IMG/VR virus record: IMGVR_UViG_2579778748_000002
Length of the DNA: 50,752 nucleotides
From: a virus
Taxonomy: Duplodnaviria; Heunggongvirae; Uroviricota; Caudoviricetes
Direction: 5' to 3' (one strand)
A program made the position numbers. Positions 9,001-12,000 of the stretch are shown in pieces (within the stretch, counting starts at the first letter, position 1; the number at the start of each line of letters is the position of its first letter).

Positions 9001-12000
9001 GCCAGATGCTGATCTTCTGGTTGCTGTCGTTACTGCTGCAATTCACATCACCCCAAACCCATCTCGTTTGGTATCTGTTCGCGCTTTGTCAGCGCATCAT
9101 CGAAGTTAAAGAGCCTGCCAATCTGTTCCGTTTGGCTGCCAGCGTCCTGCTGATGGCGATGATAATGAACCAATAGTTCGATATTATCAAGAACTATAAG
9201 TACGAATTGTTTGTGGTTCATTAACTTAATGAGATATGTTTTTGATATGTAAAGGAATTTATTTTTGTAAAGATTGAAGATTGGTCAGTAGGAGAGAAAG
9301 AATTGTTTGCTGGCGTGTTAGTTCGTGGGTTAGCACATGTGCGGATGTTAAATAAGGTAGACGATCGTGAGGAAAAGAAAAACCGGCGCTGAGGCCGGGT
9401 ATAATTATTTGATTATTTCTTTTATAAAGACTTCTTTCGGTTGGTATTTTTTATCTGATGATTTGAGCTGGTACGTTATTGTTATATCAGCACGTACAGC
9501 AAATTTACCTGCAAAATCTGATGGGTTTACGTTGGGGCCAAGAACCATATTTACTCTTCGATCTATTAATCCAGGGATAACAGCAGCCCAACCTTTCTCT
9601 GGATTGTCGAGGTCTAATGCACGGATTTCAACATCAACATCAAAATGATCCTGAGTATATGACTCTGGTGTGAAGACAACTTCAGTTGGGGCTTTTTTAA
9701 TGGTTTCAGCGGGAATGGTCACTGTACCACCCCCTGTACCTATGACCATCGTAGATCCTTCGTCTGCCCTAGCTGGGGCAAGCGTCTTAATGGAACTTTT
9801 GGCAAGAGTCTTCTTATTGGTTACCGTGCTTTCTATGATTGCTTGAAGACGGTCAGGTGAAATATTAGCCTCACCGGCACCAATATTGATGATTGTATTG
9901 TTATTTGCTTCAAAGTGGGAGGTGTTGCTTGGAGCCATAGCCTTAGTTGCTAGAACTAAGCCATATCCAACCAGACCAATAACAACAGCACCAACGAGAG
10001 CGTTTCTCATTTTCCCATTTCCGATCTTTGCATGAGCGCCAGCAAGAAACTTGTCCATTTCTTCTTGGCTACCAAAGAGGAGTTTAATAACAATATCTTC
10101 ATAAAGGCTTCCTGCTTCTAATCGCGCAACATGCACCGATATATCAAGGATATTAGCCCCTGTCAGTTCCTGCAAAACACCTTCTGATTGTTTTGCGATG
10201 GCCTCCCACCCTTGAAGGGAGGTAATCACATCTTTGATGCTTACAGGTTCTTTAGTTGAATAATATATGTTTTCGGTAAAGGTTAAAGATAATTCTTGGG
10301 ACATCCGAGCCCTCGCTGTTTCTTTCGATTTGCTGTGTTAAGCTAATATTTTAATATCCATGTTTCTGTTTGCTTGCAGTGTGTTTCTCACCACCATCCA
10401 AACGTACTGGTTACTAGCTATGTGATGATGAAGTCATGAACTTTTCAGCCATTCCCTGGCCTCGATGTCATCTAGGTGGCGAGATTGCTTCAGAATACCA
10501 GCTACATACTCCACCTTTGCTACTTGATGATAAGGCAACGTTATTGGCCTGTGGTCTTGGTTGATGCTTGTAAATTGGTATTCTCCGTCTCTGTCATAGC
10601 CAAGAACCTTGATCATGTTGTGCCCTTCAATGGTTCTGACAAACACCTCATCACCTGGGAATACTTTGGTGTTAGGCTCAATGAGTACATATTCTCCTGA
10701 TTTTATTCTGGGCCACATGCTGTCTCCTTTTACACGAAGACCAAAGGCATCTGGATCATCGCTATAAATCTTGAGCCACCCATCGCGCTCTTCGGTCATC
10801 TCGATGGCACCATCAACACCAAGAATTGCCTCACCAACCACGCGCACTAACCCTTTTTTTAATTTGCCAACAATTGAAAAAGTATCTTCATCATTCGCTC
10901 CATTTAACGAAGTGCCGTGCTGAAGCCAAACAACATCAACGTTTAGAAATTTCGCAAGCGCATTCATTTTTTCCTGGCGTGGTAAAGACTCAGCATTAAA
11001 CCATTTGCTAACGCCTTTGGACGAAAGAGAAAGGGCACGGGCTATGGCCATTCCCCTACCATGTTCATCAAGACCAGCTTCTTTACAGGCTTGCGCTAGC
11101 CGCTGGGCGAATTCTTTGCGCACTTTTTCATTCTGAACCATGAGTACGATACTAAAGCACTTGCAAAAACTTTCAGTTCAACCATAATGCGTACTGAAAG
11201 TACGAAAAAGGACATTCCTATGCAAAATCTTGATGAGCCGATTAAAGGTGTCGGCATCCCTGAAGTTGCGAAGGCTTGTGGAGTTAGCGAAAGGGCTGTC
11301 TATAAGTGGCTCAAAAACGGCTTCCTCCCTAAGACTGAGTTTTTTGGGAAAACGAAATACGCATCAAAAATCGAAGAGATTTCTGGTGGCAAATATCAAG
11401 CAAGCGAAATGCTTGAAATAAGCAAAAAGAACCTTCTGGCAGCATAAGTAACACCGCTCTTTATCAATCTGCACCGCCGACAACGCGGTAACTAATTAAG
11501 AACTCATCGAAAGATGCGTATTAGTGATTATTTACCTATGGAAATAGTAAGAAATGGAACAAACAAATTACAGCAAACTATCACAGCGCGACGTTGATCG
11601 CGCAGAAACAGATTTACTTATCAACCTGTCAACGCTTACTCAGCGCGGTCTGGCAAAGATGATTGGCTGTCATGAATCGAAGATAAGCAGAACAGACTGG
11701 AGGTTTATAGCTTCGGTCTTGTGTGCTTTTGGCATGGCATCAGACATCAGTCCGATTAGCAGAGCTTTTAAGTATGCGCTTGATGAAATCACCAATAAAA
11801 AACGCCCGGTGTGCAAGACCGAGCGTTCTGAACAAATCCAGATGGAGTTCTGAGGTCATTACTGGATCTATCAACAGGAGTCATTATGACAAATACAGCA
11901 AAAATACTCAACTTCGGCAGAGGTAACTTTGCCGGACAGGAGCGTAATGTGGCAGATCTCGATGATGGTTACGCCAGACTATCAAATATGCTGCTTGAGG

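What the first reader, a model, noticed from the sequence alone, without database searches (positions are those of the whole stretch)
9373..10433. Unrecognised 299-aa membrane protein in the rexAB-equivalent slot next to the repressor
The gene at 9405-10304 sits immediately downstream of the cI-like repressor on the same strand and ends in its own intrinsic terminator, the arrangement lambda uses for rexA/rexB (expressed in the lysogen with cI). Other lambdoid phages keep abortive-infection or exclusion genes at this slot. The protein has a roughly 100-aa N-terminal soluble region, one hydrophobic helix and a roughly 175-aa C-terminal region, is clearly more AT-rich than the flanking phage genes, and matches nothing I can name. 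It is the best candidate in the window for an undescribed lysogen-expressed phage-exclusion or abortive-infection determinant.
Basis: partly seen in the sequence, partly recalled or inferred. Interest (0 to 1): 0.75.

Follow-up and report, generated by a model that had tools for sequence, protein, structure and literature searches.

The report
Unnamed membrane protein beside prophage repressor
A real, well-conserved but completely uncharacterised membrane-anchored protein sits in the slot next to a prophage's repressor gene where related viruses keep genes that kill or exclude rival viruses, so it is a strong but untested candidate for a new anti-virus defence gene.

Summary
Window 9405-10304 (-) encodes a 299-aa protein 129 nt downstream of a 933W-type cI repressor, on the same strand, followed by a hairpin and T-run. 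It is under strong purifying selection (pN/pS 0.04-0.10). Its family has at least 664 clusters at 50% identity across Proteobacteria and matches no Pfam, NCBIfam, PADLOC or PDB entry; only PHROG 4506 (unknown function) matches.

Stx phage P27 has a 99%-identical cI and the same terminator but carries the Stk kinase cassette in exactly this place. Other E. coli prophages carry a HigB-type toxin cassette or a DUF1828 pair there, and lambda carries rexAB. About 21 of 46 distinct upstream neighbours of homologues, down to 31% identity, are cI-like repressors.

Two corrections. The terminator belongs to the shared slot, not to the gene. A high-confidence model (pTM 0.86) and coevolution suggest the N- and C-terminal parts form one body around a hydrophobic helix, not two domains on opposite sides of a membrane.

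Function is untested. My best guess is a lysogen-expressed, membrane-acting phage-exclusion or abortive-infection protein: about 0.5 for defence in general, about 0.3 for the abortive mechanism.

The parts
9405..10304 (-). 299-aa ORF, the subject of the finding. It is the founding E. coli member of an uncharacterised family (PHROG 4506).
   Evidence: ORF found. PHROG 4506 matches at E = 1.9e-170 over the full length. No Pfam, NCBIfam or PADLOC match. pN/pS is 0.04-0.10. The profile search found 664 representatives at 50% identity.
10020..10304 (-). N-terminal alpha/beta domain, residues 1-95, with order beta-alpha-beta-beta-alpha (ferredoxin-like). L30, G65, S66 and F77 are nearly invariant.
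   Evidence: AF2 secondary structure, conservation, and weak ferredoxin-like or RRM-like fold hits.
9936..10004 (-). Hydrophobic, glycine-rich helix, residues 101-123 (ALVGAVVIGLVGYGLVLATKAMA). It is the predicted membrane anchor.
   Evidence: Hydropathy 2.24. A single such segment near residue 103 is present family-wide. Flanking K+R averages 3.15 on the N side and 1.12 on the C side. AF2 predicts a helix with pLDDT about 94.
9870..9908 (-). Juxtamembrane polar motif ANNNTIINIGAGE, residues 133-145. It is invariant among the closer homologues and reads NNxIINxGA in the wider family.
   Evidence: Alignments A1 and A4. AF2 predicts a helix here, with the lowest pLDDT of the protein (about 81).
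9408..9668 (-). C-terminal five-stranded beta-barrel, residues about 213-299, with OB-like order b1-b2-b3-helix-b4-b5. P206 and W239 are invariant; R228, A229, D231, D233, G238 and R250 are nearly invariant.
10305..10405 (-). 5' leader belonging to the cassette. It includes the GAGGG ribosome-binding site at 10310-10314. The last 60 nt or so travel with the ORF behind five different repressor alleles.
   Evidence: Homology with phage P27 stops at 10405/10406. Upstream regions aligned. No stable structure.
9373..9398 (-). Intrinsic-terminator-like hairpin (9383-9398) plus T-run (9373-9382). It is the slot's shared terminator, the equivalent of lambda's terminator at the end of the cI operon.
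   Evidence: Terminator scan, fold with dG -9.1 kcal/mol, and an identical stem-loop in Stx phage P27 next to a different cassette.
10434..11141 (-). cI-type repressor (HTH_3 + Peptidase_S24), 99% identical to the CI of Stx phage P27 (933W-type immunity).
9162..9204 (-). PL-like promoter (TTGATA-17-CATTAT, 9190..9162) overlapped by an operator-like half-palindrome, AGAACTATAAGTACG, at 9190-9204. The perfect palindrome CGTACTGAAAGTACG lies at 11190-11204 in the cI/cro intergenic region.
   Evidence: These are consensus matches only. Window-wide, the operator pattern is not enriched over shuffles.
8654..9046 (-). N-like antiterminator. It marks the left boundary of the cI-to-N accessory slot.
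   Evidence: Pfam N_peptide at E = 1e-40.

Best explanation
The gene is a self-contained accessory cassette of about 1 kb (window 9400-10405). It occupies the hypervariable slot between the prophage repressor gene and the leftward early promoter.

Inferred: it is transcribed in the lysogen by read-through from the repressor's maintenance promoter and stopped by the slot's shared terminator.

Shown: the product belongs to a previously undescribed protein family with a ferredoxin-like N-terminal domain, one strongly hydrophobic glycine-rich helix, a conserved Asn-rich juxtamembrane helix, a helical linker and an OB-like C-terminal beta-barrel.

Inferred from the model and coevolution: the N- and C-terminal parts form one globular body. 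Because there is no signal peptide, I infer that this body lies on the cytoplasmic face of the inner membrane, tethered by the hydrophobic helix.

The mechanism I commit to is a single-polypeptide phage-exclusion system that does the job lambda splits between RexA (sensor) and RexB (membrane effector). The cytoplasmic body senses a product of an infecting phage. The hydrophobic helix and the Asn/Gly-rich helix then oligomerise in the membrane and depolarise it, aborting the infection. All of these steps are inferred.

Probabilities: about 0.5-0.55 that it is a phage-exclusion or defence determinant of any kind, and about 0.3 for the abortive, membrane-permeabilising mechanism specifically.
For: (1) Exact slot allelism. 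Stx phage P27 has a 99%-identical cI and the same terminator hairpin. Between the breakpoints at window 9399/9400 and 10405/10406 it carries a four-gene cassette that includes the Ser/Thr kinase Stk. The 933W kinase is co-transcribed with cI and aborts HK97 infection (PMC3564112, citing Tyler 2004 and Friedman 2011).

(2) The same slot holds HigB + HTH + a hypothetical gene, or DUF1828 + a hypothetical gene, in other E. coli prophages. It holds rexAB in lambda and bstA in BTP1 (PMC8585504). The cI-to-N region is described there as a mosaic hotspot.

(3) The position is conserved over deep divergence. Of 46 distinct upstream same-strand neighbours of homologues (100% down to 31% identity), 21 are HTH/S24 repressors. 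Pseudomonas phages D14C, U9 and U7 (24% identity) have the homologue one gene downstream of CI.

(4) The same gene (90% identity or more) is paired with at least five different repressor alleles and carries its own roughly 60-nt leader. That is how a mobile moron behaves.

(5) The other contexts are accessory slots of mobile elements: a P4/PICI-like element downstream of the primase, an AlpA/MobA element, Mu-like prophage head regions, and a position next to a DUF499 protein. From my own knowledge, not tested here, DUF499 is the BrxC family of BREX ATPases.

(6) There is no terminator between cI and the ORF.

(7) Membrane-effector features are present: a single Gly-rich hydrophobic helix family-wide, followed by a conserved Asn- and small-residue-rich helix.

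(8) The gene is under strong purifying selection.
Against: There is no experimental or expression evidence. The window protein matches no known defence model (PADLOC).

Neither the sensing step nor the pore step has direct support. Coevolution shows no coupling between the hydrophobic helix and the Asn-rich helix.

The topology is unresolved. The positive-inside rule fits a plain N-in/C-out single span, which would put the C-terminal domain in the periplasm and would favour an entry-blocking mechanism instead.

Genes in this slot are not always defence genes. Phage 434 Hex mainly stabilises the repressor against RecA (PMC3564112).

Confidence: 0.5

Rival explanations
1. Entry-level superinfection exclusion without cell death. 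The protein is a bitopic inner-membrane protein (N-in, C-out). Its C-terminal domain, or a cytoplasmic-face body, blocks genome injection by incoming phages. It would do so by binding the tape-measure or ejection proteins, or the inner-membrane channel they use. Models are HK97 gp15, P22 SieA, Sie2009/Ltp, or (with a nuclease) SNIPE.
For: The hydrophobic helix is flanked by 3.15 K+R on the N side and 1.12 on the C side, and 154 of 180 family members show this bias. That predicts N-in/C-out. Membrane proteins in lysogeny modules are classically injection blockers (own knowledge). SNIPE shows that a membrane-tethered protein can act on entering DNA (PMC13190303). The OB-like C-terminal barrel could bind DNA or protein. 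The slot arguments are the same as for the best explanation.
Against: The AF2 model with the deep alignment has pTM 0.86. Coevolution pairs residue 13 with 186 (score 2.03, above every shuffle), with 11-190 and 17-184 on the same register. This places the N-terminal strand against residues 184-190, which is incompatible with the two halves lying on opposite sides of a membrane. No nuclease or known Sie domain is present. The characterised alleles of this slot (RexAB, Stk, BstA) are all abortive systems, and the HigB-type toxin cassette found there is uncharacterised.
Confidence: 0.2
2. A lysogenic-conversion membrane protein that alters host physiology (envelope, stress tolerance, colonisation) and has no direct anti-phage role.
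For: The same prophage carries other host-directed cargo: an inverse autotransporter of the invasin/intimin type, a lipocalin, and a 2-thiouracil desulfurase/DUF1722 protein. No defence model matches. The gene is kept under purifying selection in about 2.7% of complete E. coli genomes, which any useful function would explain.
Against: The family is found in phages, satellites and mobilisable elements of very different hosts: Enterobacterales, Pseudomonas, Betaproteobacteria and a Desulfuromonadales genome. It is always at moron or hotspot positions and preferentially behind the repressor. A host-niche-specific factor would not be expected to spread this way. The characterised alleles of the slot are phage-exclusion genes.
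Confidence: 0.15
3. A regulator of the prophage's own lysis-lysogeny decision, like phage 434 Hex. It would be a membrane-tethered protein that modulates repressor cleavage or induction in response to envelope or membrane signals.
For: It probably shares an operon with cI. Hex shows that genes downstream of cI can act on induction (PMC3564112). The architecture (a cytoplasmic domain of about 100 aa, one hydrophobic helix, a second domain) superficially resembles single-pass signalling proteins such as RseA (own knowledge).
Against: The same gene is combined with at least five unrelated repressor alleles. It also occurs away from any repressor, in Mu-like head regions and in satellites. This argues against a specific partnership with the repressor. 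No DNA-binding or anti-sigma domain was detected.
Confidence: 0.07

Closest known systems
Lambda RexA/RexB
   Same: The genomic position is identical: between cI and OL/PL, on the same strand as cI, ending at a terminator before PL. The gap after cI is of similar size (129 nt here, 112 nt in lambda). A membrane element is present. Expression in the lysogen is proposed for both.
   Different: It is one gene, not two. There is no sequence or profile similarity to RexA or RexB (Pfam; hhalign probability 0.2% or less). It has one hydrophobic helix, whereas RexB is polytopic (four transmembrane helices, from my own knowledge; not computed here). It is analogous by position only and is not a family member.
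933W/P27 Stk kinase cassette
   Same: It is an exact allelic alternative. Both sit behind a 99%-identical cI, share the terminator hairpin and share the flanks. Stk is co-transcribed with cI and aborts HK97 infection (PMC3564112).
   Different: The Stk cassette has four genes including a eukaryote-like kinase. The window gene has no kinase domain and no similarity to it.
BstA (Salmonella BTP1 and relatives)
   Same: It is a single gene of about 300 aa immediately downstream of the prophage cI. BstA has its own Rho-independent terminator; here the terminator is the slot's. Homologues across Gram-negative prophages keep the position behind the repressor (PMC8585504). The pattern found here is the same.
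   Different: [quoted passage not shown] From my own knowledge it has an N-terminal KilA-N-type domain. The window protein has a hydrophobic helix and no hit to any PADLOC or Pfam model. Whether an aba-like self-immunity element exists here was not tested.
Membrane-acting superinfection-exclusion proteins (P22 SieA/SieB, HK97 gp15, T4 Imm, Sie2009, SNIPE/PD-lambda-1)
   Same: They are small to medium membrane-anchored proteins encoded by prophages and expressed in lysogens. SNIPE shows a single-span anchor with cytoplasmic working domains (PMC13190303).
   Different: There is no similarity to SieB (PF14163), to any Pfam model of these families, or to any PADLOC model. SNIPE is PD-lambda-1, which I take to be in PADLOC-DB. 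There is no DUF4041 or GIY-YIG nuclease. A genuine SieB homologue lies separately at 8056-8637.
PHROG 4506
   Same: Full-length match at E = 1.9e-170. This is the family's only existing database label.
   Different: The PHROG has no annotation (function unknown). Nothing was found in the searchable literature.

Membership tests
Lambda RexAB system | Two genes, rexA (cytoplasmic sensor) and rexB (polytopic membrane protein) | tested here: not met
   There is a single ORF between cI and the terminator, with one hydrophobic helix only.
Lambda RexAB system | Sequence or profile homology to RexA or RexB | tested here: not met
   No Pfam RexA or RexB hit. hhalign of the family profile against lambda RexA and RexB gives probabilities of 0.1% and 0.2%.
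Lambda RexAB system | Location between cI and OL/PL, on the same strand as cI, ending at a terminator | tested here: met
   There is no terminator in the cI-ORF spacer.
Lambda RexAB system | Co-transcription with cI from PRM in the lysogen, and exclusion of T4 rII-type phages with loss of membrane potential | not testable with these tools
   Needs RNA-seq or a Northern blot of a lysogen, plus plating and membrane-potential assays.
933W Stk abortive-infection kinase | Eukaryote-like protein kinase domain | tested here: not met
   No kinase domain. hhalign against P27 Stk gives probability 0.2%. Only the slot is shared.
BstA | Homology to BstA (an N-terminal KilA-N-type domain, from my own knowledge; I take PADLOC-DB to include a BstA model) | tested here: not met
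   No PADLOC hit at E up to 1. No KilA-N hit in Pfam.
BstA | Gene immediately downstream of the prophage repressor in many homologues | tested here: met
   21 of 46 distinct upstream neighbours are HTH/S24 repressors. This is a shared architecture, not homology.
SieB / Sie-type exclusion proteins | Match to PF14163 or the PHROG SieB families | tested here: not met
   The target has no such hit. The neighbouring gene at 8056-8637 does (E = 2.5e-22).
PHROG 4506 (unknown function) | Full-length profile match | tested here: met
   E = 1.9e-170, residues 1-299 aligned to profile positions 1-300 of 300.
PADLOC candidate system PDC-S42 | Match to model PDLC05015 | tested here: inconclusive
   The window protein and 20 relatives tested singly do not match. 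Two of the 147 broad-family members do, with a best E of 5.9e-6. Those two members could not be identified.
OB-fold domain (C-terminal region) | Five-stranded closed beta-barrel with a helix between strands 3 and 4 | tested here: inconclusive
Bitopic (single-span, N-in/C-out) inner-membrane protein | One transmembrane helix with positive-inside charge bias | tested here: met
   Hydropathy 2.24. K+R is 3.15 on the N flank against 1.12 on the C flank, and 154 of 180 members have N greater than C.
Bitopic (single-span, N-in/C-out) inner-membrane protein | N- and C-terminal domains structurally independent, on opposite sides of the membrane | tested here: not met
   pTM is 0.86 for the whole chain. 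The coevolving pair 13-186 scores above every shuffle, with 11-190 and 17-184 on the same antiparallel register. The evidence is moderate, not decisive.

The most novel reading that the evidence does not exclude
The protein founds a new, widespread family of single-gene anti-phage systems: at least 660 clusters at 50% identity in prophages, satellites and mobilisable elements across Proteobacteria. In it, a cytoplasmic ferredoxin-like plus OB-like body and a conditionally membrane-active hydrophobic/Asn-rich helical element are fused in one chain, a one-polypeptide functional equivalent of RexA + RexB. If so, it would give a tractable model for the long-unresolved question of how Rex-type systems couple phage sensing to membrane depolarisation.
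Probability: 0.3. Interest if true: 0.75.

Novelty: new variant of a known kind. Interest (0 to 1): 0.55.

Why it matters
The slot next to the repressor of lambdoid prophages has repeatedly yielded abortive-infection systems: RexAB, Stk and BstA. This gene is an exact allelic alternative to one of them. It is carried by about 2.7% of complete E. coli genomes (149 of 5426). Its family extends to Pseudomonas and Betaproteobacteria while keeping the position behind the repressor.

It has no Pfam, NCBIfam, PADLOC or PDB relative. If it is a defence gene, it is a new protein family and possibly a new way of coupling phage sensing to a membrane effect in a single small protein.

It is also cheap to test: one 900-bp gene in a K-12-compatible lambdoid background. 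If it is not a defence gene, it is still a widespread, strongly conserved prophage membrane protein of unknown role.

Tried and rejected
Sequence and profile searches
- Pfam, NCBIfam, PADLOC and PHROG scans of the protein gave only PHROG 4506 and sub-threshold noise driven by the hydrophobic helix, such as DUF1206.
- Pfam and PADLOC scans of 147 family members gave nothing consistent.
- Two guesses at which members hit PDC-S42 failed.
- PDB searches with the single sequence and with two profiles gave nothing below E = 0.06.
- hhalign against RexA, RexB and Stk gave no relationship.

- Foldseek against the PDB gave M16-peptidase half-domain hits at TM about 0.15, rejected as spurious.
- Foldseek against BFVD gave one uncharacterised phage protein.
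- The afdb50 library was unavailable.

Literature
- No paper mentions PHROG 4506 or PDC-S42.
- Brenes & Laub 2025 (E. coli prophage defence screen, Cell Host Microbe) is not held. I could not exclude that the gene has already been tested or named there.
- The held DefensePredictor supplements contain no matching peptide.
- No supplements are held for the P2/P4 hotspot paper.

Ideas considered and rejected
- Tab (Pseudomonas tail-assembly blocker) was rejected. It lies at a different locus, next to the terminase genes, and no membrane helix is described.
- HepS was rejected because it is a HEPN protein.
- SNIPE was rejected because the gene has no DUF4041 or GIY-YIG domain.
- A helical-hairpin test by coevolution between residues 101-123 and 125-147 gave no signal.
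- The operator-like pattern is not enriched window-wide, so I use it only as a weak positional note.
- A promoter of the gene's own in the leader showed no convincing conserved -35/-10.
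Full report
WHAT IS THERE

Window 9405-10304 on the minus strand is an ATG-initiated ORF of 299 codons. A GAGGG ribosome-binding site lies 5 nt upstream of the start.

The gene lies 129 nt downstream of a 235-aa repressor with HTH_3 and Peptidase_S24 domains, at 10434-11141 on the same strand. A divergent cro-like gene follows at 11187-11447, then cII, O and P homologues.

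Six nucleotides after the stop codon there is a 5-bp G+C hairpin followed by TTTTTCTTTT, at 9398..9373. Its folding energy is -9.1 kcal/mol. Further left are a PL-like promoter at 9190..9162 and an N-type antiterminator at 8654-9046.

The cI-ORF spacer contains no terminator-like site and folds no better than shuffled sequence, with z = +0.47. The order N, PL, terminator, ORF, cI, cro is that of lambda's N, PL/OL, rexB, rexA, cI, cro.

IS IT A REAL GENE

Yes. Against four orthologues whose synonymous sites are 13-77% diverged, pN/pS is 0.04-0.10.

The exact protein is recorded on 1000 or more contigs, always as a hypothetical protein. DNA at 99% identity or more occurs in 149 of 5426 complete E. 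coli genomes and in 11 sequenced lambda-like coliphages of the 1H12 / Lambda_ev group, genus Jouyvirus.

A word-indexed search found 55 clusters at 90% identity. An exhaustive profile search found 664 representatives at 50% identity with E below 1e-3, 282 of them below 1e-30. Nearly all are about 300 aa and match end to end.

Hosts include many Enterobacterales, Pseudomonas, several Betaproteobacteria (Accumulibacter, Zoogloea, Cupriavidus, Nitrosomonas, Dechloromonas), Methylocaldum and a Desulfuromonadales genome.

WHAT IT IS NOT

There is no Pfam, NCBIfam or PADLOC match for the protein. None is consistent across 147 family members. The only label is PHROG 4506, of unknown function.

PDB sequence and profile searches gave nothing. 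Profile comparison with lambda RexA, RexB and P27 Stk gave probabilities of 0.2% or less.

One loose end remains. Two of the 147 relatives hit the PADLOC candidate model PDC-S42 at E = 5.9e-6. I could not identify which two.

ANATOMY OF THE PROTEIN

With a 34-sequence alignment, AlphaFold2 gave pLDDT 83.5 and pTM 0.67. With 147 diverse sequences it gave pLDDT 93.7 and pTM 0.86. The secondary structure was the same in both:
- A beta-alpha-beta-beta-alpha N-terminal domain, residues 1-95.
- A helix at 101-123, which is the only strongly hydrophobic segment (Kyte-Doolittle 2.24, glycine-rich).
- A second helix at 125-145 carrying the motif ANNNTIINIGAGE. The motif is invariant among the closer homologues and reads NNxIINxGA in the wider family.
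- Three short helices spanning 150-179.
- A C-terminal five-stranded beta domain with a helix between strands 3 and 4, which is the OB-fold order.

The best-conserved residues family-wide lie on both sides of the hydrophobic helix. They are L30, G65, S66 and F77 on one side, and P177, P206, R228, A229, D231, D233, G238, W239 and R250 on the other.

TOPOLOGY: A CONFLICT I COULD NOT RESOLVE

Family-wide there is one hydrophobic segment near residue 103. It has 3.15 K+R in the 15 residues before it and 1.12 after it, and 154 of 180 members show this bias. For a single span, this predicts a cytoplasmic N-terminus and a periplasmic C-terminus.

Other evidence points the opposite way. A pTM of 0.86 implies a confident arrangement of all parts relative to each other.

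A mean-field coevolution analysis used 232 sequences (effective number 178). It recovers the expected strand ladders inside the C-terminal barrel. It also gives residue pair 13-186 as the third-strongest coupling, with a score of 2.03. The maximum in three column-shuffled controls was 1.71.

Pairs 11-190 and 17-184 lie on the same antiparallel register. There are weaker couplings between helix 23-48 and residues 156-174. This indicates that the first strand of the N-terminal domain pairs with residues 184-190, so both halves are on the same side of any membrane.

There is no signal peptide, so that side is most simply the cytoplasm. Residues 101-145 would then act as a membrane anchor, either a hairpin or a monotopic helix. 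I found no coupling between the two helices of that element. The evidence is moderate, and reporter fusions would settle it.

CONTEXT: THE STRONGEST EVIDENCE

(a) Exact cassette swap. Stx phage P27 has 933W-type immunity and a cI that is 99% identical. DNA homology to the window runs from the right down to 10406, which is 28 nt past the cI stop codon. It resumes at 9399 and includes an identical terminator stem-loop.

Between these points P27 has 2.1 kb with four genes, including the Ser/Thr kinase Stk. The window has the 1.0-kb cassette with the 299-aa gene. The hairpin is therefore the slot's terminator, not the gene's. In 933W the kinase is co-transcribed with cI and aborts infection by HK97 (PMC3564112 and the references it cites).

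(b) The slot is multi-allelic. Other E. coli prophages with related repressors carry HigB + HTH + a hypothetical gene, or a DUF1828 protein + a hypothetical gene, at the same place. Lambda carries rexAB. Salmonella BTP1 carries bstA, and the cI-to-N region is described as a hotspot of mosaic diversity (PMC8585504).

About 427 complete E. coli genomes carry this cI type. About 150 of them carry the allele that is at least 99% identical to the window's, matching the roughly 149 genomes that hold the ORF.

(c) The position is conserved at depth. I fetched 66 loci from viral and genome collections. The longest same-strand ORF ending within 450 nt upstream of the homologue fell into 46 distinct sequences. 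Of these, 21 are HTH and/or S24 cI-like repressors, paired with homologues from 100% down to 31% identity.

Pseudomonas phages D14C, U9 and U7 (24% identity) have the homologue downstream of CI with one or two small genes in between.

(d) It behaves as a mobile module. Copies at 90% identity or more sit behind at least five different repressor alleles (235, 251, 244, 223 and 155 aa). They bring about 60 nt of conserved leader with them.

(e) The other contexts are accessory positions of mobile elements:
- Downstream of the primase in a P4/PICI-like element of Serratia.
- An AlpA/DUF3987/MobA element.
- Next to head genes of Mu-like prophages. From my own knowledge, this is the region where Pseudomonas Mu-like phages carry anti-CRISPR morons.
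- Next to a DUF499 protein in one genome. From my own knowledge, DUF499 is the BrxC family of BREX ATPases.

No conserved partner gene was seen.

HOW IT MOST LIKELY WORKS

Shown:
- It is a conserved single-gene cassette in the repressor-adjacent hotspot.
- No terminator separates it from cI.
- The protein has one hydrophobic helix, a conserved Asn- and small-residue-rich helix next to it, and conserved globular parts.

Inferred:
- It is expressed in the lysogen on the repressor transcript.
- It is anchored to the inner membrane.
- It protects the lysogen against other phages.

I put the defence or exclusion role at about 0.5-0.55. Within that, I favour an abortive mechanism in which the globular body senses a phage product and the 101-145 element oligomerises and permeabilises the membrane. 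This would be a one-chain functional analogue of RexA + RexB. I put it at about 0.3, for three reasons:
- The characterised alleles of this slot (RexAB, Stk, BstA) are all abortive systems.
- The Gly-rich helix and the conserved Asn-rich helix look like an oligomerisation or pore element.
- The body appears to be cytoplasmic.

The main rival, at about 0.2, is a block to genome entry at the membrane. The positive-inside prediction of a periplasmic C-terminal domain favours it. A non-defence conversion function (about 0.15) and a Hex-like role in the prophage's own induction (about 0.07) remain possible.

COMPARISON AND NOVELTY

By position and likely expression, it is the same kind of element as rexAB, stk and bstA. 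By sequence, profile and available fold comparison, it belongs to none of them, nor to any described family. Hence my rating of new variant of a known kind.

There is a caveat. The one paper most likely to have tested it, the Brenes & Laub 2025 E. coli prophage defence screen, is not in the library. The held DefensePredictor supplements contain no matching peptide.

VERDICT

Interest is 0.55. It is a good, cheap-to-test candidate for a new defence family. So far it is only a candidate, and many comparable candidates exist.

Noticed in passing
window 13723-17274 (+): A 1183-aa inverse autotransporter of the invasin/intimin type (IAT_beta at E = 1e-100, five Big_1 repeats, Invasin_D3). It sits inside the prophage just after replication gene P, where related phages have ren. 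A very AT-rich stretch (32% GC) lies at about 13400-13850. This looks like adhesin cargo on the phage.
   Followed up: partly
window 19596-20120 (-) and 20313-21272 (+): A lipocalin (Blc-like, Lipocalin_2 at E = 7e-44) and a 2-thiouracil desulfurase + DUF1722 protein lie between the NinB-like region and the late genes. This is further non-phage cargo in the same prophage.
   Followed up: partly
window 8056-8637 (+): A SieB-family superinfection-exclusion gene (PF14163 at E = 2.5e-22; PHROG 1301) lies just left of N. The prophage therefore already carries one recognisable exclusion gene within 1 kb of the finding.
   Followed up: partly
alignment A4 (broad family); PADLOC model PDLC05015: Two of the 147 distant family members match the PADLOC 'phage defence candidate' model PDC-S42 at E = 5.9e-6, while the window protein and 20 others do not. 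I could not identify which members match or which region aligns. If PDC-S42 is a sister family, this would be independent support from defence islands.
   Followed up: partly
L080 3603-4909 (E. coli 13E0767) and L081 2023-3364 (E. coli 6629): The same slot between the repressor and PL holds other cassettes: a DUF1828 protein plus a 180-aa hypothetical, and HigB toxin + HTH protein + a hypothetical. The slot is a multi-allelic hotspot worth a systematic census.
   Followed up: partly
L002 4450-4923 and L003 4450-4923 (Pseudomonas phages D14C and U9): A conserved 157-aa ORF lies between CI and the distant homologue in the Pseudomonas phages. A YafO-type toxin gene lies about 1 kb downstream in D14C. 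Whether the 157-aa protein is a partner of the homologue was not examined.
   Followed up: no
window 11190-11204 and 9190-9204: The perfect palindrome CGTACTGAAAGTACG lies in the cI/cro intergenic region. A copy with two mismatches overlaps the PL-like promoter. These are candidate OR and OL operator sites of this immunity type. The pattern is not enriched window-wide, so they are suggested by position only.
   Followed up: partly
L004 6001-6900 and L060 4995-5948 (Mu-like prophages): In Mu-like prophages the homologue sits among head-morphogenesis genes, next to the Mu protease I gene or to the Mu F and portal genes. This is the neighbourhood where Pseudomonas Mu-like phages are known (from my own knowledge) to carry anti-CRISPR morons.
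   Followed up: no
PP438411.1 10899-11135 (Leptolyngbya phage Lsp-JY19): Only the last 80 residues or so (220-298, the C-terminal barrel) match a cyanophage protein, at 33% identity and E = 7e-8. The C-terminal domain may occur on its own or in other architectures.
   Followed up: no
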